The notes under the pieces are model-generated. The model ran no database searches and was not told the origin of the DNA. It saw nothing but the letters and a program-made list of their open reading frames with translations. A DNA stretch of 64,000 bases from Psammoneis japonica (taxonomy: Eukaryota): the NCBI GenBank assembly GCA_008632985.1, contig QPGO01000033.1, positions 372,001-436,000 on the forward strand, given 5' to 3'. Position 1 is the first letter of the stretch. Each line of letters starts with the position of its first letter. The position numbers and the translations under genes are program-made. This document shows, piece by piece, positions 11,001 to 64,000 of this stretch.

Positions 11001-11150
11001 TTTTTAAATTAAATTCAAACAAATGATGCACATCATGCCATCCTTCTGCAAATGTGATTGTGATGCTGGAAACAATGGCAACAACAGCTGCTTGTCTGCA
11101 CAGATGTTTTTTGCATTCTCAACTGCTCTTTGTCTGCGTGGGTTACTTGG
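8100..11150. mobile_element. CpG/TpA-depleted degenerate repeat block A (decayed TE; possible copia-type integrase fragment near 8830-8900, minus strand)
   Basis: CG and TA are nearly absent, TG/CA is in excess and there is no coherent ORF. The minus-strand peptide FLEFAVPKKLTFDGSKEH resembles the 'EFGVPEKLTFDGSKEQ' type of copia integrase motif (weak). Confidence 0.55.
10225..10960 (+). repeat. Diverged tandem repeat, ~4 copies of ~180-200 bp
   Basis: The anchor cagggt(g/c)aatctc(t/a)tg(t/c)ccatgcagc recurs at ~10332, 10526, 10704 and 10906, along with gtcaaaatg and aagaaccatgg. Confidence 0.8.
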
Positions 11151-28329: not shown

Positions 28330-28759
28330 AATCTAATGCTAGAGTCAAACCTGCACGTGGTTTGCATCGCCGAGGCCAGCCGCAATCCTCGTCATGGTGG
28401 CCAATATTTCATATCTCCCGAATCATCGCATCATCGCGTGCGTGTTGGAGGGAAAAACGGGCGCATTGCAGACGGTATGAATACGATAGAACGCACGCAC
28501 GGCAAGCGCTGTTCCATTTATGAATGTCTTCATTCAAGAAGAAACAGCATAAATATCAACGTTAAATAACATGAGAACTCCGATACATATCGCGCAAGAC
28601 ACATTTGACGTCGTACTGTATGTACCGTACAGTACAGTACTTCTTGCCGGCACGTTTCAACACCACGACTAACCGCATCCCGCATCATCACTCTACACCG
28701 ACCGACCTTGTGCCTCATATGAATTGATCTGTCAAGTATGCAACGAATTATTGGACACC

Positions 28760-36489: not shown

Positions 36490-38101
36490 ATGCTCGTTTC
36501 CCACGCTCTTGTTGCTTTGCTGCTTGCTTTGGGCGAATCCTTTTGCAGTGGCAACAAGCAGGGCCGCCAAGGTCTACTGTAGACCCAACTGGACCCCTTG
36601 AAAATCTGTGCTGCCACAGCAAATCTGAACAAATGAAGCTGTGGACCAGGCAGTCTATTGCCCAAGCAACAAAGCAAAGGGGAACAACAAGACAGCACCC
36701 CTGACACCTGCCTTGCATTTTGGATGCGCTCGAAAAATGCACATCTCTGGGCTTTCTTTTTAAAGTTTTGCGAGGTTTGACCGTTTTCAACTGCAAGATT
36801 CAGACTCATAGAACAAGCCAACATTTTAACTCATCAAGTGCCGTGTTGTCATGCTTGTTCTTGTCTGTTTGTTTTAAGAATGAAAGTCGTTTGAGAGTCG
36901 CTCCTCTGAGGACAATGACCCTGGCAGAACAAAATTTGATGCAAAATGGTGCCACTGATTTTTTGGGAGCAAAATTTCATTTCTGGAGAACAAGTTGAAC
37001 TCCAACACTTGCAGATGATGCACCAAACCAAATGTCTGAGTGGCAGGCTCGACTCCTGGTCTGGATTGGGTGCAACAGCACTTAAAAGCAGGTTTGAGTT
37101 TTTTCAAATTTCTGAGTGGCAGGCTCAACTCCTGTTCTGGATTGCAGCTGTCATGTGTGGAACAAATTTTATGGTGGCCAAGCTTTTGGATCAGATCATG
37201 CCCTTGTCGGCAAGTGCAGCAATTCTGTTTGCTGTGGCTGCTGTCCCTTGCACAATGGGAACTTTTGTGGTGCAACAAAACCAAGATGAGAGTGAAAAAG
37301 AGATGGACTGCAAACAGATTTTTCAGCCGCATTGGAACAAGCTTGGTGCATGGTGCATGGCACACTGGGCAAGGTGCCTTTGCCAAGCCTGCAGTTTTTG
37401 CAGCAGTTGGCAGATGCCAGGGAGAGTGCATTTTTTTCAACACCTTGGCTGTTGTGGTTGTCCCCACTTTGGAATCTGTTTTCAATGAAAAGGAACTTTA
37501 GCCAACTGCAGTTTTGCCTCTGTGGGCATGGCAGCGGGTGGTGGCATGGCACACTGCTGGAATGGGGAAAATCCTTGCTCGGCACTCCTGGGCATGGGGC
37601 AGTGCCAAAACATCAGCTGCCCTGTCACCGCCAAGTCACCATTGGAACCTGCTGTGTTTTTATCTTGGACAAGCATTCATGTTTGGTGTTCTTGGTTGTT
37701 GGTGATTGGAAAGTGTTTCCACCAAATTTCCTGACAAAAGTGATGTGTTGAGACAGTCTTTCAGAGCTTTGGGGTGTTGCTCTGGGGTCACAACTGCCTT
37801 GGCTGCTGACAGATGGTTCCAGCATTCCTGTGATTCAACAGCAGCTCTCAAGTGCATCTTTGGCAACTGATTTGTTGTGGACTGGGTTGGTGTCAATTGC
37901 ACTCACATTGTGCATGGAAATTGTGGTGCTGATTGCCATGTTGGCCACCAATCTCACACTCACAATGACGACATTGACTGGCATCTTTGGGTCTCTTTTT
38001 GCCCATTTGATGCTGGGTGTGAATTTTTGAGTGGTGAAGGAATTGCAGGTGGCACCTTGGCTGTGCTTGCTTGCATTCTTTCAACTCCATCAAAGGACTG
38101 A
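36490..38101 (+). pseudogene. Hypermutated EamA/DMT-family transporter pseudogene, originally with signal/plastid presequence
   Basis: MLVSHALVALLLALGESF start; remnants AVMCGTNFMVAKLLDQIMPLSASAAILFAVAA, ECIFFNTLAVVVVPTLE, LLWTGLVSIALTLCMEIV and GIFGSLFAHLMLG, GIAGGTLAVLAC. Many stops and frameshifts. Confidence 0.75.
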
Positions 38102-41100
38102 CAAGTGCCAAAGCAAATGTTGTTTTGAGCTGAACCAATTTTGTTTTTGCCAGTCGTCATTGGGTCTGGTGCCTTCTTGGAAACTTGTGACGTGACAGTC
38201 TTTGCAACAACATTGTGAAGTCTGACACCCTCTGAGCAAGTTAGGAGATTGGCAGCTGCCACTTTGTTGCACCCAAGCCACAATGCCTTGCAGTTGAAAC
38301 ATTGGCATGGGGTGCATTGCCACACCAAGGGTGCCACATCATGGCCTCTGTCCATGTTGGCAATTTGCCCAAGAGGATGTGCATTGCCCTTCTTGCATTT
38401 TTGCTTTCTTGTTCCAAAGCCAGCATTTCCACCATGAGCACCACAAGAGCAAGATGGTGGGGGGTGTTCCTGTGTGAGGAAGCTGGGGATTGCCATCCAC
38501 CAATGCATCAGCTGCTGAGCACACCATGCAGAAATTTGCAAAACAAAACGTCACAGAAAGCTGTTCTCTTTGGTGTTGCAAAAGGCTGCATCACCCAAAA
38601 TGGTCATTTGTGGCTTTGCAAAACAATTTGACAAGTCTCAGAGTTGTTTCTCAGTGATCAAAAATGGAGCAAACCATGACATGATGCCATCTGTGGTGGC
38701 TTCATTGCAACTGCAGTCGTGGAAGCATGCGCAGCTTGTCACAGTGCTCTGTTTCACCACCTCATGCTGGCTTTTTCAACAGCTTGACGTTGCACACAAT
38801 GGTGCAATGAAAACATTTTTCAATGAACCAAGCAAGAGCCAAAGGCAAAAGGTCCATTCCCAGAGGCAGCTTTTTGTTGTGCCCAGACAAAAAGTCTCCA
38901 AACCTGGGGTTTTTGAATTTCTGTTTTGTCATTGGCTTGAGTGGCATTTTGCAAGTGCAAAAGCACCAGCTTTGATTGTGTGTGCATGATGATGCAATTT
39001 TTGGGGCAAATCTTGCTTTTGCCATGGATGTGTTCACACAGCAACGAGCCAGACAACTTGCTTTTGCAGTGCATGGCCCATGCAATTGCAGCACTTGCCA
39101 CATGACTGCGGTTGTTAAAGAAGTGCACCTGGTGCCATTGCATTGCAACACATGACAGATGCACTGTGCTGTGGGCTGCACAGCGCAACGATGCAACTGC
39201 CATTTTTGCACAGGAGTCATGCAGAGCATGCTGCAAACAAAAATGCCATTGCAGCTTTTGACTCAAGCAGAAGCCACATGAAATCATGGCATGTCATGTC
39301 TCACAGGTGCATGGACAGACAGCTAGAAAGCTGCTTGCATGACACTCTTGCTGCATCGCTGGAGTCAGCAGGAATTGAGATGACAGCTGCAGGCACAACA
39401 CCACATCACATGACCAAAAAAAGTGACACAACCATGAGTCATAAAACTCAATGCAAACAAGGCCATAACTCACAAGGCCAAGCTTCAACTCTCTGTCCAC
39501 AGCCAACACACAAGTGCAAATGACCAACAAACCAACCCGATGATTTTTGCCACAATCACATTTCAGCATCAGGATTGCTGTTTCAGACAAGCATTGTTGC
39601 ACCCCTTCTTGTGTGCACACATGTGCCATTTGGGTGGCACACACGAATGCCACAACTCCAGTGTTTTTGTGATGTGGGGGATGCTTTGTTCCTGCAACAT
39701 GGAAATCTGGCTGCTTGATGCTCAAGACTTGTCTGCCAAGGGCCGAGGTGGGGCAGGCATTTGTGGTGTCTCAGTTGTGGAAAATGCTTCATGTCAAAGA
39801 AGGGGTTGTTGTTGGGGCTGGCAAACAATGTCCTCCCACAATGTGGCCAGTGCAGAACCCAAAGCAAAGCACAAAAGCACTTGTGCTTTATGCAAAATTG
39901 AGCTTGCACCAAAAAACAAGCAGGGACATCTGCCATTGTCAAGCCAGGCAGAGCACTGCAAGGGGCTTGCTGGAACAATGACTTCATTGTGCAATTGAGC
40001 TGTGACAACATGCCATCACCTGGCCAAATTGAGAAAGGTGCTCATGTCCAAATGACACTTTCATGAGACAAAGCTGAGCCTGCTGAATGACAACATTGCT
40101 CACAAAAAAAGTGCAAGAGCACTGCACGGCAGCATTTGCTCATGAAGAAGTGCTGAGAAAAGTGATGCTCAAGTCATCACCAAGCTTGCTTCTGACCCTC
40201 ATGACCCTGCAGTGTGCTCTTGTTTGCTCATGCAAGTTTTGTTCTCATCTTGTTGTTCCCTGAATTGCACACAGAGCAAACAAATGAGTTCATGGTGCCA
40301 AAGCAAAGGTTGATGCAGCTGGGCAATTCAGACAAAGATGACATGGGAGCATGAACAGCAGCAGCATTTTCCCAGTCATTCCACACCACAAGAAATGATG
40401 GGGGTCAAATCTGCTTGCACCCATGAGATCTGATGTCAACAGAGAAGTCTTGAGAGCATGCAATCAACAGCTGCCAAAGAATGAGCTTTGCACACCTGCT
40501 GACATGCAGTTTGAAAAGCACAACAGAAAAGACAGGCAAACAACACTGCAGGAGGACTGATGCTTGCACTCAAGAGTGGTGACAAAACACGCAGGATTTG
40601 TGGCAATTGCAGGTGGGGCAATGCACACCACTTGCAGCAAGAGAAGTGAACATCAGATCACATGAGAGTCAGGGTTTTGAGGAGCCCAACATGGTGGCTG
40701 GCATCTTTGCAGTCAACCCCACTTTTGCATGTGACGTGCCAATGTTTGCATCTAGAAGTCTGCTGCTGAAGACTTGCTGCATGCCAACGTTTTGGGGGAC
40801 GTCTTCGGAAGTGAGACTGTCAAAGAAAGTCATGTAGAATTTGCACTGAAACAGTCTGTCAATCAGTGCGATTGGGCATTTGGGACCTCTGGACAGATCC
40901 CACGTGTTTTCTTGTGCATGCAAATTGCACTGGGAAAGCCCCCAAACGCACTGGCGATCAGACCACCTTCAATGATCTCACTTCCAAAGACGCCCCCCAG
41001 CTTCCTTTTCTTGTCAGCGTGTGTGCTGTCACCCATTTTGCAATTGCCCAGGTTTCTGTTTTAAGCCACATCAAGCATGCTTTGTTCCTGAGTCATGGTG

Positions 41101-41960
41101 CAATTCATCAAAAAATGAGCCATCATTCTGTCATCACTGCCTTGCTCCAAAAAGCCCTTGCTGTGTGATGTGGCATGGCATGTGCTCGCTGCTTTTGCTG
41201 TGAATGCCAGCATTTGCTGCAGACACAGCACCCCAGCATGCACACTCTGTTCACACTGAGGACCCTTGCAACAACTTGCAACTGACAGCAAAGCTCTCCT
41301 CTCTTGCCAGCCAAATTTTGTTCATCTGTCTGGCATGCAAGCACAGCCTTGAGTGCTGATTTTCTGAGCATGTCAGCAAGCGAGGGTGCAAGCACACGCG
41401 TTGTCCTGATGGCACATTTTCCAGCTTTGGGCGGGATGCTCTGCACGGCATTTTGAGCCTGCCGAGCTTTGCAAACAAACCCTGCAGCAAAATCGCTGTG
41501 CAACAAACAAGTCAACAATTGGTTGGGAACAGAGTGAGAGATGACTGTTTTTAGATTGATTTTGGGAAACACCCAGCCAGGCTTGAAGCATGTGTGTTGT
41601 TTCTGGTGCTTGCTCAGGTGCCCCGCTCACATGTGAAAAATGTCACCAACACAACTGCCTGACTGTGGTCTCGAAAATGGTCAAAATCAAGTTCTTTTGG
41701 CTTTGTAAAATGGGGCATGTCAGTGCTTGACGAAAGAGCTGGTGCGCACCCCCGCCCTGCTCTGCCAATCGAGTTTGGGTTCCTGCTTGTCACCAGCCAT
41801 GTGGAGGCGCAGAACCAGCTGATGAGCATGTGCAGCGCAGAACTGTTGGCTTGCCGCGCGCCAGCCACCAAGTTCAAAGTTCCGAGACTCTGGCCGGCAA
41901 AGCGCGGATCGGATGACTCAGAACTTGAAGAACGGCAGCCGGCGATTGGCTGATTTCATC
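36830..41960. mobile_element. CpG/TpA-depleted degenerate block C (EamA pseudogene plus TE remnants)
   Basis: CG and TA are near-absent, with graded edges. Confidence 0.7.
38400..38950 (+). mobile_element. Possible pogo/Fot1-like DDE_1 transposase remnant
   Basis: Fragments KGCITQ...LW and FTTSCWLFQQLDVAHNGAMKT resemble the DDE_1 'GW.t..F..W' and 'PxxTxxLQPLDV..f...K' motifs. Confidence 0.4.
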
Positions 41961-44651: not shown

Positions 44652-45272
44652 TGTCCCAAGATGATCTCCCCGAAGCTTGGCTTTGTCCCTTTCTACTCCA
44701 AGATCGACAAGGTGCCCCCTTGGAGGACGGTGTGATCGTCTACTCCCTTGGCATCATGCAATGGGAGATTTGTAAGGGCAATTCTTTGCTTTTCAAGGTC
44801 CACAAGGTTGACGCTGTGCTTTGTAGATGTCGACCACTCGGTTGTTTCCTACCAGGGCACGTCCGCACAAAGATATGGTTTCCCCGAAGCTTGGCTTTGT
44901 CCTTTTCATCGAGATCGACAAGGTGCCCCCGTGGAGGACGGTGTGATCGTCTACTCCCTTGGTATCTTGCATGGAGATGTATGTAAGGGCGAGGCTTTGC
45001 TTTTCAAGGTCCACGAGATTGACGCTGTGCTTTAAAGATGTCGACCAATCGGTTGTTTCCTACGATAGCACGTCTGTCCAAAGATGAAGCTTGGCTTTGT
45101 CCCTTTCCCAAGATCGACAAGGTGCCCCCGTGGAGGACGGCGTGATCGTCTACTCCCTTGGCATCGTGCATGAAGATATATGAAAGGGCGTGGCTTTGCT
45201 TTTCAAGATCCACAAGATTGACGCTGTGCTTTGAAGATATCGACCACTCGGTTGTATCCTAGCATGGCACGT
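44652..45272 (+). repeat. Tandem repeat, 3 copies of ~200-215 bp
   Basis: gaagcttggctttgtcc...agatcgacaaggtgcccc..ggaggacgg.gtgatcgtctactcccttgg...ttgacgctgtgcttt recurs at ~44672, 44886 and 45086. Confidence 0.9.
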
Positions 45273-48157: not shown

Positions 48158-48591
48158 TCAAAAGTGACGGGTACGCTTGCCCTTGGGAGCCTTGGAGCTT
48201 CCCAAACTGCTAGAAGGAGACTTGGATTCCTTCAGCTGACGGCGTTTGCCCTTGGGAGCCTTGGACGAGGGAGACTTGGATTCCTTCAATTGACGGCGCT
48301 TGCCCTTTGGCGCCTTGGAGCTCGAGGGAGACTTGGATTGCTTCAATTGACGGCGTTTGCCCTTGGGAGCCTTGGACGAGGGAGACTTGGATTGCTTCAA
48401 TGACGGCGTTGGCGCTTTGGCGCCTTGGAGCTTCCCGAACTACTCGATGGCGACTTGGTGCTCTTCGAGTCCTTTCCTTTCAAGGCCCTCGCAAACACAC
48501 TAGCGTACTCGTCGCGTAGACCAAAACAAGACGTTGCGCACAGAGACACAAGGAGAGAAATGAGAAGAGGAACAATGAGGGAGAACTTCAT
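48158..48591 (-). CDS. Silaffin-like secreted Lys/Ser-rich repeat precursor
   Basis: Signal peptide MKFSLIVPLLISLLVSLCATSCFG, then RAL, then ~5 units of K(E/Q)SKSPSS(S)KAPKGKRRQL (54-57 nt repeats). One 1-bp frameshift at ~48400. Confidence 0.75.
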
Positions 48592-49139
48592 GGTGACTGT
48601 TTCTTTTAGGCGAATCTTCAAACAAGAAACCGAAAGACCCGATTGCCAAAATTGTGAGAAGTTGGAAGGAGAGAAATAGTTTGGAACATCCGATCCAACG
48701 GTAGGAGTCCATTTCGATCAGTTCATTACGATCGTGAACACGTCAGCGTGGCGTGAGTTACAGCATTCTTAGCGTGATACTGTTTCCGGGACTCTAGCGT
48801 TTTGTGGTACAGTCTCTGTCGCCACTTAGATAACCACACGTAACAAACGCAAATTACAAGATACACAGAAACTTCTTTTGATTTGTGTTGACAGAAAGAA
48901 TTTCCTAGACTAGCACTTTTAACAAATTCATTCGTTCTTGACTGGTTTTTACAACTGCAGACTTTCTCATCTAATTTTTTTTTTAGAATATTATTTTGCG
49001 TGGGAAGTGCTGACCAAACTGCCAGCACACAATCGCAGGATTCCTCTCCTCTACTGTACGATGATTTATGCAGAATGCGTAGAGAAACCAGTGCGCAGGA
49101 TTGCGTGTAGGATTTGCACTTAATTTTCTTAAAACCACC

Positions 49140-52100
49140 TTCATCCACGAATCATCCCTCCACCACCACGACAAATCACCGTGTCATCGCCAATGCTTCA
49201 TTGCATCCGGTTCTTTTCTGCATCTCTGCTGCTGTGTCCAGCTCTTGTCAAGTTGTTGCTGTTGTTGAGCCCGTTGTGCGAGTTTTTGCAAGCTGGCAAT
49301 TTCGCTGTGCTTGCAAACAAGCAAAAGCTTGTTGCTGGCCACACTCTGCTTTCTGACTGTTGTTGCATTTGGAAACAGAGCTGCCAAAACTAATGCTGCT
49401 GATCTCCTGTCAAGATGTTGACATCATTTTTGGTTTGCAGACTTGGCAACCTTTGTTTGGGGGGGTGCACTTTGGGTGCTGACATGTCAACAGCGGCAAA
49501 TGCATCATGGCTGGGAGATCATGGCTGATTTTGTTCTGGTTGAGACAACCTGTCATGCTGTTGTTTGGTGTCTGACATTTTTGAGCACAGCTGCCAAAAC
49601 AGATGCCACTGATCTCTTGACAATGGGGCCAAGCTCCTCTTCATTGTCTTTGGCTTGCAGACTTGGCAACCTTTTTGGCGTGCACTTGCAAGTGCAATTT
49701 GCTGGCTGAACTTTTGTTTGCACATGCAAGATGTTGTCACTTAATTGGCCAGTTTGCTCAGCTAAAAAGTCAGTGCCCAAGACAATGAGTTGCAGCAGCA
49801 TTCAGACAAAGCTTCATGGTTGGACTCTTTGAAGCCACCGAAGTCATGCTGGCTGCTGAGCTGGATGATGGTTGCTTGGAAGCAGCCAAACTTTCCATTT
49901 TGGTGAAGTGACAAAGATCCTCAATCTGCAACCTTGTGTGCTCTTTCTTTTGCAGTCTTGTGTCAACACTCATGACCAAGGTTGAGCCTTTGCCAGCTGT
50001 TTGCTGGAAGAAGCAGTGCTGGAAGCAGTGACACAAGCAATGTGCAAGTGTGCCTGGGGTGCTTGCAACTCTCCAGCAGCAGCTTTGCTCTGTCAAGGCA
50101 CCATCTTGCCAACTCATGATTGCATGCTCTCTTCTCAGAAGCAATGGATTTGATCATTTGCTGCACTGCATTTGCTGTGCAGGATTGGTCAATGTGAAAG
50201 CAGCTCAGTTGCAGCTGCAGCTTTTTGCTCTTGGTGACATTCATCTAAAGATTTGTGGCTGCAGTGGTTGGCTGGAACAGATGCTGTCAGAAATGCTCTT
50301 GCTTTCTGTCTTCATGGGGTTTGCAAGATGCAATTGGATTTTGCACAGAAAACGCTCTGCAGACCTTTGCTTTTTTTTGCTCCAGCTTGCACTTCTATCT
50401 TGCCATGAGCAAATCTTGTGCAACATGTCCTTTTTGCTTTCAACTGGCTGCAGACCCAAACAACCTCTTGCTCCAGGAAAGCACTCGGTCATGGAGGATG
50501 CCTTGGTGGGTTGATCATCAGCCCAGTCAATTGCAGCTGCTCTTTGAAAGCCTGGCCATGGCTGCCACAACTTTGGGCGCACAAGCACACAATGCTTGAG
50601 CAAGAGAAAATGTCTGGACAAGCAACAATGGACTTTCTTTGTGAATGAATGACTGTCAATTCAACAAAAGAAGAGAGTTCATTCCTGCTGGTTGCATCAA
50701 GTCTTTTGCATCATTGGTGCTGCAATGTCAAGAGACTTGTCATGCTTGTTCACAGCAAGTTTGCCAGCCAAGCACTGCAGTGATGCAGGCACCAGAAAGT
50801 TGGAGATTCTGAAAAAAGTTTCTTGTGTCTCTTCCTCTCTTGGAGCAAGAGAACAGTGGCCAAGCTTGGCTGGGATGATGAGTTGCAGCAAAGCAGCACT
50901 CAGAAAAATGTGTCTGCAGCATGCACCAAGAATTCTGCAGCCCGCTCCAGTCAGCCCCACTTGTTGTCCATCCCTCCCCAGTTCTTAAAGACAGGGACAT
51001 TCATCAGATCTCTGAGCATCAGAGCAAATTGCTTGTCTTCCTCTGATTCATGAGAGCAGTCTGATTTGGAAGAGACCAGTTGACAAAAGGTGGGGCAGAC
51101 CACCACTCTGACACACAATCTGCAATTGAGCTCTAAAGTGCTGATGATGACTTGGGATTTGTTGACCCAGTTGTGCAGCATTTTGGGGAGACAAGTTGAC
51201 AGCCTTGTGACTTCTTTGTGGTTGACTTGCTTTTGCAACATGCAATGTCAGCAAATGAGGATGGAGCTGTGGTGTCAGGTGCACTCAAGTTCAAAGAGCC
51301 TGAGGATGACAGGAAAACTCTGACAAGCCAATCACACTCAGCTGCAGCAGAGGTGTTTGTGGCCACAATGACAACAACAAGAGCATTGCTGCAGGTTCTG
51401 GAGGGCCTGCAGGTTCAACCTGAGAAGCATTGTTTCTGACTCAGCTGCCTGGCAATGAAGGCAGGTTTCTTTGGAGTGGAGGGGTGGAATCGCAAAAAGG
51501 TCCAGCTCTGACTTGGGAGAACCCAGTTGCAGACTTCATTGCCAAAGAGCCACCAAGAAAAGGCAGAGAGAGGAGATGAAGAGAGACAAAAACCCATTGG
51601 CACATTTCACACAGCAGCTCCAAAGACATGCTCATTGACCTGGGGCTCCCAACAGAGTGAGATGTGCAAAATGAAGCAGGAGCATCTCCATGCCCCACAT
51701 GAACAACACCATCCCATTTTTTGCTCAGCAACCCCAGCTGTTCAATTGCTGCTTGTGTCATTGTTGTTGTTGTTGTCAACCACCCAACACTGCACACTTT
51801 GGTTGCATCAAGAGAGATGTTGTCATCAATTGCTGATGCCAAAACACACAGAGAGACAGTCTTGACAACAGCACAGATGTCTGTGATGGTGAGAGAGACA
51901 GAGACATGCAAAAGTGAGCAAACCAGTTGCCTTGCAGGGAGACATTGTTTGCTGTGTCCCCAACAATTTTTTTCTTCTTGGACATGAACTTTTTTGTGAC
52001 TTCTGGCAAATGCCCACCAGCTTGGTGGGCAAGTTTCAAGCACATTTCACATGGTGCAAACATGCAGATTTCTGCTTTGGCAATGCACAGAAATGCAGCT

Positions 52101-55100
52101 TTCGCCCACGCTGCACAATTGCGGTGCTGAGTTGTGTGCAGCACGCCAGTTTTTTTTTTTTTTGCAAATCTGTGCATCATTTTGCACAGGGTGCACAAGC
52201 ACCTGCTGCAAGTGGCAGTGTGCTCAAATCTGCACAGGCAACTGCTGTGGGTGCTTGCCCACATGCATGCCACAGTGACGCTGGGCCCACAGAACTCCAC
52301 ACATGAGGAGCTCTGCACTGAAATCAAAAGGTGATGAACAACTGATGGTCACCAAGAAAAAAGGCCTTTTTGCATGCAACAGCGCAAACTCATCCATGCT
52401 TGAAGTGTGTGCCTTGGTGTTTTCTGCAGACATCAAAGAAATTCCCAGCCTGGCTTTTGCCATCAGAAATGGGCAAAATGAAAATTCTTTGGTTTCAAAA
52501 CACAAAAATTTTTGCAAAAGAGTGCACAAAGACATGCGCGTGCATGACATGCAGCCCATGATCAAAAATGTTCTGTCACAGTCCCACAACATGCCCGCCA
52601 ATTTGGTGCACTCCCCTGAGACCAAAAGCAAAAGCACAAAAACAAAAAACGAAACATTGCAGTTGTTCTGCAACTCTCTTGTGCTTGAAAACAACATTGT
52701 CCACCAAATGAAGCCACATTGTTGCATGGCTGCCCCTTTCAACCACACTTTTGAGTCCAAAATTGATGTCCCCACTCAATTTGCATTTGCTTTGCAACAC
52801 CAACAACAGTCACCTCAGAGTGGTGCAAACAAACCCTTGCTTGCCATCCGCACTTGTTCATTGTCTTTTGTTTTGTTGGTGCTTCAAAACATTGGCCATC
52901 TCTTGATCACTTGCTTTCTTCATGAGACACACAAAAGAATTGCCACAAAGGGCAAAAAACTGCTGTCGTGTGATCTGCACTCTCTCACACATCATTGTGT
53001 TCACGCAGATTTTTTGAAAACAAACAACACTGAATGCCCAATCTTTGTTGGGTGGCAAAAAGAGATTGATGACAAGCACATTGATTGTTCTGTCAGACAT
53101 GTGCAGAAGGAACTTGTTTGCAGATTGAGCCACACACCAACTTCTGCATGGAATGACAGGTGCTTTTTTGTGCAAGTTCCTGTGGATGTGTTGCGCGGCT
53201 GTTTTTGACAATTTTTTGTCATCTTTGCAGCTGCAGAACTGATGCCACACATGGGCAATGCAAAGTGAGCATGACATGCATCATGATTTTGATGTGTTTC
53301 AGCCCCCAGGTGGCAGGGCTCATGTTGCACACAACACCAGGCCTGCAAACAGAATGAACTGCAATGGCACAACCATCTGTCAGGAGCATGCAACATTTTG
53401 CTGTTGCACATTGACCATGGCCAGCGAGATCAAGGGAGTCAGGTTGTTCTTTTGGCTCAGACAGGCTCTCAATGTGTGGCACATGCTGTGGCACATTGGA
53501 TGACAGTGGGAGCAAGTGAGTGCATGTGCATGATGGGAAATCCAAGGAAGAGCTGAGGGAGTGGAGGCACATTCCACAGTGAAGCAAATGGCTGGGAAAA
53601 AACAAAAATTAAAAAAGAACCAAGGTCAGAACAAACAAGGACTCAAAAGGTGCCAAAAATTGGGAAAGGAGACACACAAGAGAAGGACGAACAAGGATGC
53701 TGAGCAATGTGATGAAATGTGGTCCAAGCAATTCTGGGATGATTGTGTTGACTGCAAAGAAGTCCTCTGGATGGATGGGGGATGGGCAATGTGATGTTGA
53801 TGGAAGCCGATGACAGCGACAATGAACAGAGGAGAGTTGTGGTTTGCAGATGCACTGCAAACAGCAGTGCAATGGTCATCTGGTCAGCCAAAAAGACAAT
53901 TGAGTGAGAAAGCAAAAGCACACATCAAAAGCATGATGAAACAAAAATTTGCTGCAAAATGAGAGTGCATCTTGGTGATTTGTGTGCTGTGACAGCAGGA
54001 AATGAAAGGCACAGCTGCGTGAACAATCTGGCATCATGAGATGACAAACAACCACCAATGATTGCCAAAGGGGAAGAAGTGATTTTTCATGCAAGTGAAC
54101 AAAGTCATCCATGATTGAAATGTGCACATTGTTTTTGGTGTGCATGGGTGTTTTCTGCAGATGTCAAAGAAAAAATGCCTCTCACACTGGCTTTGCTGTC
54201 AGAAATTGCCCCAAAAAATTTTTTGACCGTGCAAAAGAAGCTGTGTGAAACAATTTTGTCTGAGAGCACAAACAGAAAAGCAGCCCATGATTAAAAAATG
54301 TCCTGTCACAGCCCCGCACTGTCGCGCAAGGTCTCAACAACCAACAGAGCTGGAGCACCGCTGCAGTGGTTTAAAAAGAAAAACACCTGAATTTGGCAAT
54401 GTGTTGCAACCTCTGATGAAGGCAAGGACAGCTTTGTCAGATGGCACAAGTTGCACGGCATGAACCAAGCTGATCATTTTCACATTGGGCATGAAGCTGT
54501 CCCATGCACGAGAGCACCTTCTTGGCACAACAACAGCCACAGCAGCAGGTGCACAAACCACCTCTGTGTGCATGCGTCTCTCAGGACAACCAGCACAACT
54601 TCTGAGTTTTGAAGTGCATCAACAAAGAAGCTTGCACCAACATCCATGTGTCCCCAGTCCAGCCTTCAACATCAAGGAGGCCACCATCATTCACACAAAT
54701 CAAATGAATTGTGGTGGCATGATGAATGCGTGCATGGTCAGCAAGCCACAATGTCTTGCTGTTGCGCGCTCATTGTGGCTCAGCAACGCAAAGGGTGCCA
54801 GGTTGTTCTTTGGGCTTGGGTTTGTCCCAGAAAGAAGTCAACAAGTGTGCATCATGCACACATCACAGACCGCCCCAACTGACCCTTTGTGCTCAACTGC
54901 AGCAGCGCATGCAAAGACAATTTGAAATGAAAAACAGTCATTTTTGGGGCATGTCAACTTGATTGTGCATTGTCAAGGTCAGTTGCACCTCATTTCTCAT
55001 GTCTTTTTTCTCATTGTCAGTGCTTTCACCATGGTCTGTTGTTTTTCTGATTCAGACTCTGATGACAACTCTGTTCACTCCAACAAATTTTTGCGCTGCC

Positions 55101-56500
55101 CCAGCAGTGATGAGGACCCATCCAGAATGCCACTGCTGTTGCTGCTGCCTTGCATCAGTGTGCAGCAAACAAAGAAAACCAATGCAACAGCACAGGAGCA
55201 GATGGCTGGCACCATGTTGGTGACAACCCAAATCTTCAGATGATGAAAACAAACCCACGATTGCCACCGCTGCAAATGCACACCACACCACTGTTGCTGC
55301 TGCCTTGCATCAGCATGCAGCAGACCAAGAAAACCAACACATCAACACAGGAGACAGGTGGCATCAAGACAAGGACAACTTGTTTGATGCAGACAAGGAA
55401 GAGAGTGACAACAATGAGCCTCCTCTCTGTGCAACCAGAACAAGGTGCATGAGATGCTTGAAGTTGTTGATGCAGTGTTGTTGGCACGACATTTGTGGGG
55501 TTGGAGTTGGACCAAGTGGAGCAGCCCTGTCCTCTTGATGTGACTTCCCACTCAAACAACAAGAAGAGAACCCTGCTCACTTTTTCAGCAAGGGTGCCAG
55601 GCAGAATGCACTTTGTTTTTTTGCAAGGTTTGGAGGGTGTTCCAAGTTGTGCTGGGTGTTCCAAGTTGTGCTGCCAGCACCATTGGACAAGCAGCCCCTG
55701 CAACAAGCTTGCATGATCTTCACTGATGGTGATTCCCAAGAAATCAAAGAGCTGTGTGGTGCCATGTGCAGGCACATGCCTTCAACCCACCAAGCCAGAT
55801 GCAGGAGGCACAATTTTTGCAAAAGCTGGATGATGCACTGCCCCAGAGAAAAAGCATTGTGCCCCCCAATTGCAAAAGCTTCAAGCTCCAAGTTGCCGTG
55901 ATTGAGGCATGGTTGCACTCATTGATGCATCGGGGTGGGTGCAAGAACAAGGAGGAGATGATGGTGTCCAAGCAGGCATTGCTGCCAATGTTTCTTCATT
56001 CTTTGCTGGTTCTCCAGGTGTGAGGGAGTCAAGTCAACATCACTTGCATGTTCAAATTCATCCAAGGCAAAGTCTTCAACAAAGAAGCCAGCTGCACTTG
56101 TTGCCAAAAGAAGTGGGTGCATTGCTGCAAAGAAGCCAACAACTCAAGCCAAAGGAGCCAACTTTGGCATGAAAAATCATGTGGCCCCAGTGCTGCTGTC
56201 ACAAAGCCTGGCCACCAGTGAAAAAAATCTTGCAATGCAGTTGGGTGCAAAGGTTGTGGAGTTGATGCATCAGCCAAGCTGCAAAACAAACACACGGTGC
56301 CTGTGGTCAAAGCTGCCAATGGCGAATCACGTTCTCGCCAAGTGCATTGGAAGTTGCTTGCAAACAAACCAATGAGGAAGGAGACAAATGACAAGGTGCT
56401 CTTGAACAAGATCTCAAAGAAGAAGAAAGCAACAATGCCAAGGCCAGCAACCCACACTTCAAGTGCAACATCCCCAAGCGCCAATGACGCGTTCCAGCCC
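49140..56500. mobile_element. CpG/TpA-depleted degenerate block D (nested TE remnants)
   Basis: CG and TA are near-absent. Internal diverged duplications at ~49380/49590, ~52330/54050 and ~55130/55290. Confidence 0.75.
55490..56400 (+). mobile_element. MULE (Mutator-like) transposase remnant
   Basis: Fragments LDVTSHSNNKKRTLLTFSAR, WVFQVVLP...MIFTDGDSQEIKEL...RCRRH and EANNSS...NFGMK match the MULE D..D..CxxH..E layout once TG/CA are back-mutated. Confidence 0.65.
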
Positions 56501-56746
56501 TAGGTGGGACTCCGTGTGACATTGGGCCCGTAGAATTCTACGTGCGAGCTCCGTAGTACGAGAATTTAATCGATGGATATATTTATCTTCAACATCAAAT
56601 AAACGGCCAAGTTTGTGGTACAATTATGCCTCTTACCACTCGACGTTTTTGCAACTTCGCCTGCCCTACGCGATTCTTAAGACATTAAAGAATCGCGCTG
56701 TAACAAAAAATGTCAAAAGTTGTTGGACGGATCGCTCAATAAGTGT

Positions 56747-56747
56747 N
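56747..56747. other. Ambiguous base / probable contig join
   Basis: Single 'n'; composition switches abruptly from normal to CpG/TpA-depleted exactly here. Confidence 0.8.
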
Positions 56748-57998
56748 TTGAAGGCTTGCTGGAAAATGATGCAAAGGGCCATGCATGGCAGATCATTTTG
56801 ATCCATCTGTTGTCCCTGACAACCCCACAACCATGAGAGAGGACATTTTTGAGAGACTGGGTGATGCCATGTTGTTGTTGACAAACTTGCTCCCTGGGAC
56901 AAGCTGAGCAAGCTGTTGAATCCACCATGCCCTTGATGAACACTGCTGCTGCCAGCTTTTCACAGATTTCAAATGTCAACATGCAAAACAATGAGGATGA
57001 TGGGACCAACCTTGGGTTCAGATTCCTGGATGATGCATGCCAAGATGGCTGTGACTTGTGGGCAAACAACATGAGAGTGACAAGCTGCAGGCAGTCGCCA
57101 ATGATCAAAACCCTTGCAACACATCAGCTGGTTGCACGGCAAATCAACCACAACTGTTTTGTGGTCAATTGATGCAAAACAACAATGGCTTGCACTTTCG
57201 TCTAAAAATCACCCATTGCGAGGTCAGAACACCAACAATACTGTTTGTTTTGCTGCTTTTGGCATGTCTGTTCCCAATCTTGGCACTGTCTGATGGCAAC
57301 ACTTGATCACCACGCAAACATGCATTGTCAATGCATCCCATCACCAACCTCTCTTTCATTTTCTGTTGTTGCACCTGAGCCCAAGCACTTCAAACCCAGG
57401 ACTTTCTGAGACATTCTCTTCTTTGCCCAGCAGCATGAGATCACAGCACCATTCCCAAAGATGTGCCAACATGTCAAGCTGCATGTTGTCAAGTGTGCAT
57501 CGCCCTTGCGTCCACAAAGAAATTTCATTGTGTCTTCACTCCAACAAAAACAGTCAAGCAATGTCTGCTTCTCCTCTTTCCTGTCAAATTCCATGCCACA
57601 GCACATCTGAAGATCATTGTGGCACCCCCCTCACACATCCAAGAGTTTGAGCAGCACTCTTTTGGGGACACCCACAGCAGCAGAACTTGGAACTCTGCAT
57701 CTCATCCACCTTGTTTGCATTTTCCCAGTGTTGGCCACCACAGACGCGAAAGCAGGGTTTTCCATTGCTGGACACTTTGCCACTCCAGATCCAGCAGCCC
57801 TTGGTGTTGTCACAGCACAGGTGGCAACCCTCAAGTTCATTCAATGGAGCAGTGATCATTTGGAAAATTTCTGCAATGGGAATCTTGAGTGAGCAACATT
57901 TGATGTCCATGCAATCAAGATCATCCGCGACATGTCCTGCAAGAGAAAATGCAGCAGCCATGAGCAGAAGGCTGTTGGATGCAAACACCAGCATTTGA

Positions 57999-59836
57999 TG
58001 GTTCTCTTTCTTCTTTTCTGCCCACTTTGCAATGAGACAATCAAGTCCAGTCTCCAGCATGGGAAGCAACTTGTCAGCACCTTCCTTCATTTCATCAGTG
58101 ACATCCAAGTTGAGGGGTGCACCCTTTGGTCTAGAAAAGATGTGCGGCACCAGCCCAAGCTGGAGAGGTGTTCAGAAGGCTTCTTTCAAACTGCCAAGGA
58201 AAATGCAGAGGTTGTCGGGGCTGTCACTGTGAACATTGGATCAGGCAACAAATCAAAATCTGACAGCTCAGGTTCTTTTGGCAAAATGCCAGCTGCAAAA
58301 GCAAAGACAAGCAGAGCTCCAAGGCCACCGCTGTTCAAAGGATTGTTGTCAACCTTGCAAGTTGAACAAACACCAGCATCCTTCACTGGATTGACAAGTT
58401 TCCAACTCCATTCCTCCTTTTCCTTGGCACCTTCAAAAGCAAAAACAACAGCGTCATTGGTCAACAACAGAAGATTGGGGTTCACAGGAAATGCTGCCTC
58501 CAGCACGCTCCAAGCTTGTTTCACAAACTCAACCATTTCCTTTGCTTCATCACTGAGCTTGGACTTGTCACAATGCTCCCACCCTCTTTGGGGTTGGGCT
58601 TCTCAATGAAATGTGTTTGATGGCTCTCTTTCTTCTTTTCTGCCTGCTTTGCAATGAGACAATCAAGTCCAGTCTCCAGCATGGGAAGCAACTTGTCAGC
58701 ACCTTCCTTCATTTTGTCAGTGACACCCAAGTTGAGGGGTGCACCCTTTGGTCTAGAAAAGATGTTGCGGCACCAGCCCAAGCTGGAGAGGTGTTCAGAA
58801 GGCTTCTTTCAAACCACCAAGAACAATGCAGAGGTTGTTGGGGCTGTCACTGTGAACATTGGATCAGGCAACAAATCAAAATCTGACAGCTCACATTCTT
58901 TTGGCAAAATGCCAGCTGCAAAAGCAAAGACAAGCAGAGCTCCAAGGCCACCACTGTTCAAAGGATTGTTGTCAACCTTGCAAGTTGAACAAACACCAGC
59001 ATCCTTCACTGGATTGACAAGTTTCCAACTCCATTCCTCCTTTTCCTTGGCACCTTCAAAAGCAAAAACAACAGCGTCATTGGTCAACAACAGAAGATTG
59101 GGGTTCACAGGAAATGCTGCCTCCAACATTTCCAAGCTTGTTTCACAAACTCAACCATTTCCTTTGCTTCATCACTGAGCTTGGACTTGTCACAATGCTC
59201 CCACCCTCTTTGGGGTTGGGCTTCTCAATGAAATGCATTCGATGGCTCTCTTTCTTCTTTTCTGCCTGCTTTGCAATGAGACAATCAAGTCCAGTCTCCA
59301 GCATGGGAAGCAACTTGTCAGCACCTTTGTTCATTTCATCAGTGACACCCAAGTTGGAGGGTGCACCCTTTGGTCTAGAAAGGATGTTGCGGCACCAGCC
59401 CAAGTTGGAGAGGTGTTCAGAGGGTTTCTTTCAAACCACCAAGAACAATGCAGAGGTTGTTGGGGCTGTCGCTGTGAATGTTGGATTGGGCAACAAATCA
59501 AAATCTGACAGCTCAGGTTCTTTTTGGCAAAATGACAGCTGCTGAAGCAAAGGCAAGCCAAGCTCTGAGGCCACGCTGCTCCTCAAAGGATTGTTGTTGA
59601 CCTTTCAGGTTGAACAAACACCAGCATCCTTTGCTGGATTGACAAGTTTCCAACTCCTTTCTTCCTTTTCCTTGGTGCCTTCAAAAGCAAAAACAGAAGA
59701 TTGGGATTTGCAGGAAATCTGCCTCTGACATGTTCCAAGCTTGTTCACAAACTCAGCCATTTCCTTTGCTTCATCACTGAGCTTGAACTTGTCACAATGC
59801 TGCCACCCTCTTTGGGGTTGGGCCCTTCAATGAAGT
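57999..59836 (+). repeat. Tandem triplication of a ~622-bp unit
   Basis: ctctttcttcttttctgcc...gcaatgagacaatcaagtccagtctccagcatgggaagc recurs at ~58004, 58626 and 59248. Confidence 0.92.
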
Positions 59837-62800
59837 GTGCATCAAGCGGTGCATTTTGACATGTTGGTGCCATTTGAATCAAGTTCATGCTGACAAAGCG
59901 TGTCTCCATCTGACTTGTTGTTTTCCTGTCTGTCAACAAGCACTGCACACCCTTTTTCACAGCATGCAAAATCAATTGAACTTTGGCAGCAGCATCTGAG
60001 TTTTTTTTGCACTGCTGTGCTCTTCCATGGCTTCTTCTGCTTCAGAAAGACCAAACAATTTTCCACCGGCAGCCTCAACCTTGTCAGCGAACATGGCCTG
60101 GGCAGTGGCATGGATCATCACTCATCAGGCAGGGTCAACCAACGTGTCCTGCAGGTCCTCTCCTTGGCAGCTTGCAGATGTTTGAGATGTCAAAGTGTGG
60201 ACACCACTTTGACTGAACAGAATGCTTTGCAGCCTTCCTTCTTTCTTTGCTTTTTTTGGGGTGACAAGTCTTGTTTCATCCAACCAATGGATTTGTTGGC
60301 AGGGTCAGGGACAGGCAGACCAGAGTTGACAGCTTTTGGTGGAGTGTCGAGCTTTGCCCTTTTCAATTGTCTCACTTCAACATTTGGATCATTTTGTTTC
60401 AACACTGTCACTTTCTTTGCACTCTTGGGGGGTGCTCTTGCAAAGGACTTTAGCTGCCAAAGAGGGTCTGGGGGTGGGTTCTCATGATGCTCCTCTGCTT
60501 TCACCGAGTTGTGCAACCTTGACACATGTTTAACAAACCCAAATTCTGAGTCATTGAAGCACTTCGCACCAATGAAAATGAAACAAAAACCATCAAAAGA
60601 CATGCAAGATCAAGACCAATGGCCAAGTGACAATCAAGAGATGCGCCCTTTTTCACACAATTCTGACATGGTGTGAAGGCACCATCGTGGGTCACGACAC
60701 GCATGGCATCAGTTCATTTGGTGTCTTGCAAGCAGAGGTGATTGATTGGCAATGGATTGACCATTGTTGATTGTTGGCAGTTCAGCGGCATGCAAAAAGT
60801 CTTTTGTTCGCGTTTCCCATGCATGGAACAAAAAAGTGGCCAATTTGTCATTGTGGTCAATTTTCCATGCAACCAGTCAGTGCCAAGGACAAACACCCTG
60901 TTTGGTTTGTTCGAGTCTGAAGATGTTGCAAGCACAGATCCTCCAGACATGCAACCTTTGGTTGTCAGAGCAGATGAGATGATTGCAGAGACAGAGGAAA
61001 GCTCCACTCACTCTGTGTTGGCTGATGGGACCATCAGCTGACCATGATGAAGCAGTGCCTTGTTGGGTGTCCAATTGCAGCAAGAGGGAAACCAAGCATC
61101 AGCGCACCCACACATGTCACAACGGTGTGCACAAATGGTGGCAATGAATGTTCAGCAACAATGCAAATCATTGTGCATTGTGCAAACTTCAATGCACAGC
61201 TCAGCTGATGTCTGGACCTGATGTGATGATCAGGTCTAACACCGGCTGCATTGTGCAGCACTTTTTGTGCCAAGTCAATGCTCTCTTGACCAAGCGGCAC
61301 TGGCAGGTTCACTGGGCAGTTCACCCAAAACTGATGCTTGGGAGTCATGAGTTCAGGGGGGAACTCAAGCAACTTCAAACAGTCAATGCTGGGCAAGGAG
61401 CACAGTCTCAAGTCTGCTTTTGTCTTGACACATCAAGCAACCTCACCCCATTCTTCCAACATCCTGCTGCACAGAATTTGCTTGATGTGCTCAAACATGG
61501 GAGAGTCCCCAAACACCAGCACATTGTAAAACTCACACATTTTGTGATTGTCTTGTTTCTTCTCCTTGCAGATGAACAACTCAAACCACCTCTCTCTGCA
61601 CACTGAGTGTGCAAATGTGCATGTGCAAATGACAACACACAATTTGTGCACCTCTGTCTCTGCAGTGGTCAGCCAAGCCGTGTTCTGTTTTCAGATGATG
61701 AAGAAATGTCTTGCCAAAGGTTTGCACACTGTGGGTTTGCTGTCCAAACAGTTGGTCACAGGCAGCTCATGGTTGACAGCTGCTGTGAAGGCATTGCCTG
61801 GTTTGACAACAGCCTGTGTGTTGCCATCCAGGATGGCAGGAAGAAACCAATTGTCCCCTTCTGACCAATGTCATGAGCACCGGTCAAATTGCCAGATTGC
61901 TCCACATTGTCATTCAGCAGGCCAAATGAGGATTTGTGAGCCTTTTGATTTGGTCCATCTGGTTGGGAGTGGCTTCAACAAAATCTTTTCCGGAGGTGTG
62001 TGCACGCTGCACACCGCCACCTGAGCACAGGTTTCCAAGGTCCAATCATCTTCAGGCATGACATCAGTGTCCGGTTTGAGTGCATTGCAGAAGCAATGAA
62101 AGTCTTCTTGTCTGCCATGCTCGTGCTTGTGCAAATGGAACAAGTGGACAAACATCTTGGCCAAGTGACGCCCAATCAGCTTGTCAACCATGTTGCAGCA
62201 CAGCCTTTTGCAATGGCCCACCAACAGCAGCAGCATTCGGGCAGTGACACCCAAAAAACAAGGACCTGGTGCACATGCGTGCATTGCACACTGCACCAAA
62301 ACCAGCTCAAGATGGTTGAGCCAAAGTGTCAAAGCAAGACAAAGGCACAGGCAACCATGTGGCTTGCTCACCTTTGCTCAATGTGTTGCCAAGGCAGCGA
62401 CAAGACACATCAAATCACTGGTGGTTGCTGACACATCTGCCCAGAATGTTGTCGCAGGCATCTTTTTTTTATCACATCATTGCAGACACATCAAATTGCT
62501 GGTGGTTGCTGACACATCTGTCTAGAATGTTGTTGCAGGCATCTTGTTTTTTCATCACATCATTGCAGACCTTGCACATCTGGCAGTCAATGGCACATGT
62601 TGTTTCAACCTTCCATTTTCGGGGTCTTGTTCCAGACTGGACAGGCTGACCACTTGGCTGTTGTGCCATTTTTGGCATCATCATGATGCTTGCAATTGTG
62701 GCCTGGAACTTCAAACATCTCACTTGGACATCCAACATTCTGCATTGTCTTGGGGTCCAGAGTGTTTCCAAATTTGGAGCTGCAATCAGGGTGAGTGGGA

Positions 62801-64000
62801 TCAGCAAATGGAGGGGATGCTGCTGGCCTTTGGGGATGAATGCACCATTTTGCACAGCTGCACTGGCTTTTTTCATGGCGCAAATGAACACAGGATTTGG
62901 AACATGGGTGCTTGACTTGTTGGACTTGGGCAACCAGGTGGCTTTAAAGAATGCTGGGGTGACTGTGTCTGTCATCACAGTGGTTGGCTGGCTTTTGACA
63001 TTTCACTGATTTCTTTTCTGGAGCAGCATTGAATTTACATCCACACTTTGTTCCAGCTTTGATGCCAGACCAATCAACATCTTTTGCCAACGTGGCAGCT
63101 TCTTTGTCATCATGGATGACTGTTGTGGCTGTTGTTGCAATGCACAAGTGTTTTGGGGTTGCACAGATGATGCGGGGCAGGAGAGATGCAGGGAGAAGCA
63201 CAAACCTGTTGAATCCATTTGTCAAGAAACTGATCAGGCACTGGCCATGTCCATGCTCACCACAGTGCAACAAGTGAGCTTGATGCTTGGCCTGCAGCCA
63301 GAAGTGAGTTTTGGAGACATTGTTCAGGATGCAGTCTACACTGAGTCAACCTTGGTTGATCAGAGCAAGCTGCTTGTCCCTGGAAAGTTTGAACTGTTCA
63401 TTGTTGTTGAACTTCTCCAAAAAAAAAACATGATTGAAAATGAGCTGCTTGTGCAGAGAAGCAGGCAAGGAATGGCGCAAGTGCCAGAACACCAGTGGGA
63501 AGCCAATGACACATTCCAGCCTTGGGTGGGAGCTTCCAGTGTGGACGTGTGACACAAATGTTTTTTGTCATCCGTCACATGTTTTGCACACACATTTCTG
63601 TGTGTTGTCACACAAAAATTGTTCCACACTGCCCATTTTGCAAAGCCCCAAACATTTCATTCGGTGCATTTGTGGGAACATCAATGCACCCAATGCACTC
63701 TTGAATGCATGAAGAGTCCATTGGGTCAAGTGAAAAATGATGTGCTTCCATCATGGACGAGTTGGTGTTTTTGCAAAATTGTCTCTTTTTCTGTTGGCGA
63801 TCATTGGCACATTCATCACCTGACAATTTTGCTGCAGAGCTCGCACACAGAATTCTGTGGGCCCAATGATGTGCCAGTTCCACCTGCATCTGGGACGTGT
63901 CCAATGGGTGACATGGGAAGGCAGAAGCAATTGTTGGAGGCATTGGCAGACACGTGTTTCAGGGGACAGGACTCCGTGTGACATTGGGCCCACAGAATTC

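What the first reader, a model, noticed from the sequence alone, without database searches (positions are those of the whole stretch)
49140..64000. Surviving TpA sites are mostly YTAR, suggesting a sequence-context preference
By eye, the rare TAs left in the blocks are mostly in CTAG/CTAA/TTAA/TTAG. Examples: tctaga in all three 622-bp units, tctaaa at ~50244, 51132 and 57201, ttaa at ~49741, 50985 and 54291. TAY/RTA sites are almost gone, and all three TA changes in the terminal repeat are TAC->TGC or GTA->GCA. This suggests A->G is favoured in 5'-TAY-3', as an enzyme footprint would be. Exceptions exist (e.g. ttatc), so it is a preference, not a rule.
Basis: partly seen in the sequence, partly recalled or inferred. 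Interest (0 to 1): 0.7.

Follow-up and report, generated by a model that had tools for sequence, protein, structure and literature searches.

The report
Flank-biased TA erasure in algal repeats
In the transposon DNA of this diatom-like alga almost every TA step has been mutated to TG or CA, fastest where a T or C follows the A, so the few TAs left carry the sequence fingerprint of a still unidentified mutator so far described in only one unrelated alga.

Summary
Confirmed. In 49,209-64,000, 18 of 24 surviving TA are YTAR, against 244 of 1,462 in flanking DNA (Fisher p 8e-10; 16 of 22 with the triplicated unit counted once). The cause was measured on young repeat copies from the same genome (a MITE and a Gypsy-type LTR element). 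TA becomes TG or CA in place, on both strands: 33% per A after T, about 1% after A, C or G, and about 20 times faster than CpG decay. Read as A>G, the next base sets the rate (T 3.5, C 2.8, G 1.5, A 1) and A at -2 doubles it, so the best target is ATAY. These rates, with one dose parameter, predict the window's survivors and total survival (0.044 predicted, 0.046 seen). Pol eta (WA, TAA), RNA editing and an assembly artefact do not fit. Sequence cannot tell A from T as the substrate; a TadA/ADAT-fold deaminase is the likeliest guess (0.5). TpA hypermutation is described in Bigelowiella natans (bioRxiv 2026); its main text gives no flank bias. This scan noted the same process and TAY bias many times elsewhere in this genome.

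The parts
49209..56478 (.). TA-erased, CpG-poor block of decayed repeats; 10 TA left (9 YTAR: 49391, 49742, 49763, 50246, 50986, 51134, 53610, 54292, 54372; CTAT at 50396)
   Evidence: no Pfam family in six frames; 48402-56181 held at about 99% identity by contigs of public run X1
56486..56746 (+). Young, un-erased copy of a 390-bp MITE (terminal inverted repeats of about 28 bp; 4-bp target duplications in complete copies), cut by the N at 56748; internal control and polarising reference
   Evidence: 97-98% identical to dozens of genomic copies; 310 copies carry one internal 24-mer
56741..64000 (.). TA-erased, CpG-poor block; 14 TA left (9 YTAR); runs on about 2 kb beyond the window
   Evidence: L021
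56751..57080 (.). First part of an old dispersed repeat (family A), interrupted by family B
   Evidence: 66-74% identity to L213, L215, L216, L221
57127..60873 (.). Old dispersed repeat (family B) inserted in family A; holds the 622-bp triplication
   Evidence: 69-84% identity to L025, L027, L212, L217, L220, all TA-erased
57994..59839 (+). Three tandem units of about 622 bp, each with the same surviving CTAG (58132, 58754, 59376); units also differ at TG/CA pairs
60866..63508 (.). Second part of family A repeat; all 11 fetched relatives are TA-erased over the match, L213 with CpG intact
63969..64000 (+). Start of an old, mutated copy of the same MITE family (about 72% identical once followed beyond the window)
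36900..41705 (.). Second TA-erased block of the window (14 TA), outside the finding; same survivor bias
8217..11136 (.). Third TA-erased block (9 TA); a small fourth one lies at 16598-17245

Best explanation
A host mutator acts in place on the double-stranded DNA of silenced repeats and turns A:T into G:C almost only at TpA, on either strand. SHOWN: the change, its confinement to TpA, both strands, action after insertion, the flank bias (3' T>C>G>A; A at -2 best), and that this bias at a high finite dose gives the YTAR survivors, because YTAR is the class with a slow TAR on both strands. SUPPORTED, with caveats: it works domain-wise and switch-like (kb tracts about 75% changed beside nearly untouched ones; MITE copies bimodal), and hits come in micro-clusters of 6 bp or less. 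INFERRED: the chemistry is adenine deamination to inosine by a TadA/ADAT-fold enzyme brought to methylated or heterochromatic repeats, with inosine copied as G. It is the same kind of process as reported in Bigelowiella natans. CpG loss is a separate, slower methyl-C decay in the same domains.
For: MITE copies under 96% identity (49 of 93): A>G after T 670 of 2,031 (33%), after A 1.13%, C 1.19%, G 0.88%; C>T at CpG 7.1%. The two LTRs of 14 elements, identical at insertion, differ at 296 columns, 257 of them TA-type (74 TA/TG, 79 TA/CA, 104 TG/CA pairs). TG-or-CA choice between copies is concordant 0.41-0.75, mostly about 0.6, as independent hits give. Rates on 318 sites, bootstrap by site: +1 C 2.8 (2.0-3.7), G 1.5 (1.1-2.0), T 3.5 (2.5-4.7); -2 C 0.62, G 0.45, T 0.49; MITE gives the same order at +1. 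These rates predict the window survivors: lnL -48.4 vs -64.3 null, survival 0.044 vs 0.046 seen; in 169 other tiles -446 vs -583, better than an equilibrium model at -462. CpG C>T is 3.4% in hit tracts, 0.55% in spared ones. An engineered TadA-8e variant has YAY>YAR preference (PMC12528748, passages). B. natans shows TpA-only A:T>G:C hypermutation.
Against: No enzyme is identified: the deaminase genes found (TadA-like L187, ADAT2-like L190, two ADAT1-like L194/L195, dCMP, RibD-like, guanine-deaminase-like) look like a housekeeping set. The one natural ADAT2 measured on DNA prefers GAA, not TAY (PMC10354150, passages). ABE8e-YA takes CA as well as TA, whereas CA is almost untouched here (0.85%). 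TadA-type enzymes need single-stranded DNA, yet long same-strand runs are nearly absent (same-strand 0.50-0.54 vs 0.49-0.52 permuted; largest z 2.7 for 0.507 vs 0.500; MITE whole-copy variance 1.03). The model over-predicts GTAA (5.3 vs 2) and under-predicts CTAG (1.7 vs 4, three being one site) in the finding's blocks. The ancestors of the window's own blocks were not found; flanks or the LTR element stand in as baseline. Tract edges may be shaped by my query bias or by recombination or mis-assembly (two copies have mismatched target duplications).
Confidence: 0.5

Rival explanations
1. Same targeted process, other chemistry: a DNA-modifying enzyme (for instance a RID/DNMT4-like methyltransferase-fold protein, or an adenine methyltransferase or dioxygenase) marks T or A at TpA, and the modified base miscodes or is mis-repaired. 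TpA>CpA is the exact reverse of Neurospora RIP.
For: TpA, like CpG, is a symmetric YpR step hit on both strands without long strand runs; micro-clusters include opposite-strand pairs (MITE 5 vs 1.7 expected). The genome has 27 C5-methyltransferase matches, among them three intact DNMT1/DNMT4-like genes, one with a chromodomain upstream. Diatom DNMT4 is RID-related and of unknown function (bioRxiv 10.1101/2021.06.11.447926, passages).
Against: I know no such chemistry giving T>C (recalled). That paper finds DNMT4 only in diatoms among the MMETSP species, so it would not be shared with B. natans. The three genes were not placed in a tree. A Tet/JBP search found nothing, but had no positive control.
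Confidence: 0.27
2. Error-prone repair synthesis (Pol eta-like, as in antibody hypermutation) triggered at methylated repeats.
For: Hit tracts also have more CpG transitions (3.4% vs 0.55%) and slightly more non-TA A>G (0.3-0.85% vs 0.05-0.4%); short clusters occur.
Against: Pol eta targets WA, first defined as TAA (PMC6102386, passages). Here AA is about 1% or less and not depleted in the blocks (ratio 1.12), TAA is the slowest context, and transversions at TA are 0.1-0.7%. Only a polymerase of unknown specificity would fit.
Confidence: 0.12
3. A-to-I editing of element RNA, or editing of reverse-transcription intermediates, fixed by retrotransposition.
For: A 5' U/T preference is ADAR-like.
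Against: TG and CA are equal on one strand (74 vs 79); the two LTRs of one copy differ; a MITE, presumably with no RNA step, is hit in the same way.
Confidence: 0.02
4. The YTAR excess reflects new TAs made by slippage at T/A runs or by back-mutation, or ancestral composition, not protection.
For: 14 of 24 survivors touch a run of 3 or more T or A, against 206 of 1,461 in flanks; in the finding's blocks alone the equilibrium model is only 1.5 lnL worse.
Against: Ancestral TTAA and CTAA sites survive at 0.62 and 0.58 against 0.04 for ATAT in young LTR copies; A at +1 and +2 is itself slow; tctaga is kept in all three units; finite dose wins by 15 lnL in the 231-site set. It may add a minority of sites.
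Confidence: 0.06
5. Assembly or base-calling artefact, or a mathematical by-product of CpG decay.
For: One N lies in the block; some indels against run X1.
Against: Contigs of public run X1 carry the erased sequence at about 99% identity (X1 may be related to the source sample); TA falls 20-fold in raw counts; many copies lose TA with CpG intact.
Confidence: 0.01

Closest known systems
TpA hypermutation of integrated NCLDV and virophage DNA in Bigelowiella natans (Mettrop et al., bioRxiv 10.64898/2026.01.13.699255)
   Same: A:T>G:C transitions at TpA on both strands, confined to foreign or silenced DNA, not always on; TpA-poor, TG/CA-rich clusters; an adenine deaminase proposed.
   Different: Here a diatom-like genome; targets are multi-copy transposons (MITE, Gypsy-type) taken to near saturation; a flank bias (ATAY), tracts, micro-clusters and coupled CpG decay are measured. 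The main text there has no 'trinucleotide', 'flanking', 'context', 'CpG' or 'diatom'; its main target is single-copy; its supplements could not be seen.
Repeat-induced point mutation (RIP) of ascomycetes, RID/DNMT4
   Same: Repeat-directed, dense, both-strand transitions with a dinucleotide target.
   Different: Opposite direction (RIP makes TpA from CpA; recalled, and RIP indices); homology sensing and a sexual-cycle link not shown.
TadA-derived adenine base editors (ABE3.1, ABE8e-YA; PMC12528748)
   Same: A>G with a 5' pyrimidine and YAY>YAR hierarchy.
   Different: Engineered, work on single-stranded DNA, edit CA too; here TA only.
Amphioxus ADAT2/3 DNA deamination (PMC10354150)
   Same: A natural tRNA deaminase able to make A-to-I in DNA.
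   Different: Prefers GAA (and TCG for C) and hairpin loops; no TAY.
Pol eta WA mutagenesis in somatic hypermutation
   Same: TA is a hot spot for A:T changes.
   Different: AA is spared, TAA is the coldest TA context, almost no transversions.

Membership tests
B. natans-type TpA hypermutation | A:T>G:C transitions almost only at TpA | tested here: met
   33% per A after T vs about 1% elsewhere; 257 of 296 LTR-pair differences
B. natans-type TpA hypermutation | Both strands, in chromosomal DNA | tested here: met
   74 TA/TG vs 79 TA/CA between LTR pairs
B. natans-type TpA hypermutation | Confined to foreign or mobile DNA, genes spared | tested here: met
   sharp block edges, gene-bearing flanks keep about 36 TA/kb; viral inserts not examined
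B. natans-type TpA hypermutation | Not constitutive | tested here: inconclusive
   62 MITE copies picked without regard to TA: 28 at or below 0.26, 34 at or above 0.41; tracts; age structure and saturation could add to this
B. natans-type TpA hypermutation | About 1000-fold raised de novo rate; single-copy DNA can be a target | not testable with these tools
   needs mutation-accumulation lines and a whole-genome repeat map
Fungal RIP | C>T at CpA, enriching TpA | tested here: not met
   C>T before A 0.4%; TpA is lost
Fungal RIP | RID/DNMT4-type enzyme present | tested here: inconclusive
   DNMT1/DNMT4-like genes present, not placed in a tree
Fungal RIP | Triggered by homology in the sexual cycle | not testable with these tools
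   needs crosses or duplication tests
Pol eta WA signature | AA as well as TA mutated; TAA hot | tested here: not met
   AA 0.5-1.1%; TAA slowest
TadA/ABE signature | 3' pyrimidine preferred (YAY>YAR) | tested here: met
   +1 T 3.5, C 2.8, G 1.5, A 1
TadA/ABE signature | CA edited as well as TA | tested here: not met
   A after C 0.7-1.2%
TadA/ABE signature | Single-stranded substrate, same-strand runs | tested here: inconclusive
   no long runs; clusters within 6 bp, same strand 8 vs 2.9 and 7 vs 2.0 expected, opposite strand also raised
ADAT2/3 DNA editing (amphioxus) | GAA preference | tested here: not met
ADAR/APOBEC editing of retroelements | Strand-biased, needs an RNA or cDNA step | tested here: not met

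The most novel reading that the evidence does not exclude
A natural adenine editor of double-stranded chromosomal DNA, specific for TpA and best on ATAY, is recruited to silenced repeats as a 'reverse RIP' genome defence shared by stramenopiles and Rhizaria. The fingerprint measured here is enough to pick out the enzyme in a heterologous screen.
Probability: 0.3. Interest if true: 0.9.

Novelty: new variant of a known kind. Interest (0 to 1): 0.64.

Why it matters
TpA hypermutation has been reported once, in a preprint on one alga, with no enzyme and no flank preference in its main text. A second, distant lineage that applies it to ordinary transposons suggests a wider eukaryotic defence running opposite to RIP. 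The rates (ATAY best, TTAA slowest, AA/CA/GA spared) exclude Pol eta and amphioxus-type ADAT2 and give a quantitative signature to match against candidate enzymes and against the B. natans mutation list. It also warns that erased repeats lose TAA/TAG stops and Tyr codons, giving false long ORFs and escaping homology-based annotation.

Tried and rejected
No un-erased ancestor of the window's blocks was found: all 11 relatives and the two are erased over the match. Pfam on six frames of 49209-64000 and on four ORFs of relatives (L213, L214): no family, so families A and B stay unclassified. One search used log-rates by mistake; its model lines were discarded and redone. The 5' order of non-TA A>G (AA>CA>GA, CA>AA>GA) is inconsistent, so no ADAR-like ranking is claimed. 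Whole-copy and long-range strand coordination: none or very weak. Tet/JBP search: blank without a positive control. No RNA holder listed; run X2 has no cover on the block: not used as evidence. None of the 15 listed X1 differences inside the block is at a TA, and 78 rows were not shown. Rhizoctonia paper (passages): not relevant. Literature searches (listings) gave only the B. natans preprint for TpA hypermutation and nothing on diatoms; the library lacks most subscription journals. Rows dropped: 12 of 105 MITE copies under 84% identity and 12 polymorphic columns; 10 of 26 divergent copies; one copy lacking an LTR end.

Full report
Setting. The window is G000:C33:372001-436000 of a 91-Mb eukaryotic genome. 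I call it diatom-like from its gene set and from earlier notes of this scan; I did not test the taxonomy. Gene-bearing DNA has about 36 TA per kb. Five blocks have 1-3 per kb and have also lost most CG, with TG/CA up 1.57-fold and G+C unchanged at 47-48%.

The observation. The finding's two blocks hold 24 TA in 14.5 kb: 18 YTAR, 5 mixed, 1 RTAY, against 244, 741 and 477 of 1,462 in the flanks (Fisher p 8e-10). Counting the triplicated CTAG once leaves 16 of 22 (p 1e-8; binomial line). The other three blocks give 14/10/0 and 169 depleted tiles from other loci 133/91/7. Over all window blocks survival is 0.237, 0.036 and 0.004; two independent strands with a slow and a fast rate predict 0.031 for the mixed class (my arithmetic). 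AA is not depleted (1.12). CpG survivors show only a weak, opposite bias. The blocks are nested old dispersed repeats whose fetched relatives are all erased, with no Pfam family. The 'terminal repeat' is two copies of a 390-bp MITE; only one TA change can be seen between them inside the window. Contigs of public run X1 carry the erased sequence at about 99% identity, which argues against a base-calling artefact, though X1 may be related to the source sample.

Polarised spectrum, MITE. Of 105 distinct copies fetched, 93 are at least 84% identical to the young copy. In the 49 under 96%, A>G is 670 of 2,031 after T and 0.9-1.2% after A, C or G; C>T at CpG is 7.1%. Different copies take TG or CA at the same site. 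At asymmetric sites 246 changes fall on the TAY strand and 74 on the TAR strand. Copies found by the pattern were excluded at the site that pattern fixes.

Polarised spectrum, LTR element. A 5.18-kb element with 381-bp LTRs, 4-bp target duplications and RT-RNaseH-integrase order (Gypsy-type) was taken in 15 copies. Between the two LTRs of 14 copies, 257 of 296 differing columns are TA-type, with 74 TA/TG and 79 TA/CA; the 104 TG/CA-pair columns are read as TA-derived because single CpG-type differences are only 19. So the change happens after insertion, on both strands. A competing-risk fit on 3,141 site-copies at 318 sites gives, for the base after A, C 2.8, G 1.5, T 3.5 relative to A, and for the base before T, C 0.62, G 0.45, T 0.49; intervals from a bootstrap by site exclude 1. 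Position +1 is the strongest term, then -2, then +2. Site loss runs from TTAA 0.98 to ATAT 6.89. Applied to the window with one dose parameter, these rates raise lnL from -64.3 to -48.4 (saturated -42.1) and predict survival 0.044 against 0.046 seen; in the 231-site set finite dose beats equilibrium by 15 lnL, in the finding's blocks by only 1.5. Misfits: GTAA over-predicted, CTAG under-predicted; 14 of 24 survivors touch T or A runs, so slippage may add some.

How it is laid down. Summing the rows, HMM-defined hit tracts have 2,343 of 3,149 TA changed and spared tracts 130 of 1,576 (partly circular); CpG sites change 214 of 2,987 and 33 of 1,126. TA loss is thus about 20 times faster per base than CpG decay, yet in the same domains. 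The copies were found with a query from the TA-rich 3' part, which biases where spared tracts lie, and two copies have mismatched target duplications. Among 62 MITE copies chosen by a motif without TA or CG, 28 have at most 26% of TA changed and 34 at least 41%. In lightly hit DNA, changed neighbours within 6 bp are in excess (LTR 12 vs 5.5; MITE 12 vs 3.7), on the same and on opposite strands; the LTR signal rests mostly on one copy. Long same-strand runs are absent or very weak.

Mechanism. Shown: a TpA-specific, both-strand, in-place transition process with an ATAY optimum, confined to repeats. Inferred: adenine deamination (0.5). The 3' hierarchy matches an engineered TadA (PMC12528748, passages), but that enzyme also edits CA, and amphioxus ADAT2 prefers GAA (PMC10354150, passages). 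The genome's deaminases look like a housekeeping set; a divergent one could have been missed. The main rival is a base mark on T or A (0.27): the genome has several DNMT1/DNMT4-like genes, and diatom DNMT4 is RID-related (bioRxiv 10.1101/2021.06.11.447926, passages). Pol eta is a WA/TAA mutator (PMC6102386, passages) and does not fit. RNA or cDNA editing is contradicted by strand symmetry, LTR pairs and the MITE.

Known and new. The B. natans preprint (10.64898/2026.01.13.699255; I read parts 1-4 of 5 of the main text and searched it for terms; supplements closed, and Table S2 may show flanks) reports TpA-only A:T>G:C hypermutation of integrated viruses and proposes ADAT2. I was led to it by earlier notes. 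Searches listed no report for diatoms or for a flank bias. Earlier notes of this scan, unchecked AI reports, record the same process and TAY bias on at least eight other pieces of this genome and an LTR-pair test, so this is not a first sighting within the scan.

Verdict. Observation confirmed; interpretation supported as to direction and context, enzyme unproven; new variant of a recently described kind; interest 0.64.

Noticed in passing
L203-L205, L209 (G000:C301:35.4-36.2 kb; C297:5.1-6.0, 37.2-39.8 kb): At least four copies of a DNMT1/DNMT4-like methyltransferase gene are themselves TA-erased with CpG intact, while L199, L200 and L206 (chromodomain upstream) are intact: duplicated host-type or transposon-borne genes are targets too.
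   Followed up: partly
L194 (G000:C40:112.7 kb) and L195 (C79:344.6 kb): Two separate ADAT1-like (A_deamin) genes; one may be a spare paralogue worth testing.
   Followed up: partly
L189 313-1785 minus (G000:C79:88.5 kb): Nucleoside-deaminase domain fused to a 2OG-Fe(II) dioxygenase in one 491-aa frame.
   Followed up: no
L167-L170 (C38 and C57 copies of the LTR element): Both have mismatched target duplications and share a hit 5' half and an untouched 3' half with an edge near column 2,800-3,000; C392 and C424 are spared from about the same place: recombination, mis-assembly or a sequence-set boundary.
   Followed up: partly
LTR element, alignment columns 750-1300: Few TA sites in any copy, as if the parent element had already been partly erased before it multiplied.
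   Followed up: no
window 56486-56746: High-copy 390-bp MITE with 4-bp target duplications; many copies sit inside already erased DNA; 11 of 13 LTR copies have erased DNA on at least one side.
   Followed up: partly
window 49209-64000: Surviving CpG are biased to RCGY/GCGC (0.23-0.26) over TCGA (0.04), but not significantly so in the other blocks.
   Followed up: partly
window 24586-28332 minus; 28673-30736 plus: A vWA plus MoxR AAA fusion (bacterial ternary-system type) and an ANF-receptor/7tm_3 GPCR gene in the flanks.
   Followed up: no
window 44667-45272 and 48216-48429: Tandem arrays (199-bp and 54-bp units) that are not erased: short tandem repetition alone does not trigger the process here.
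   Followed up: no
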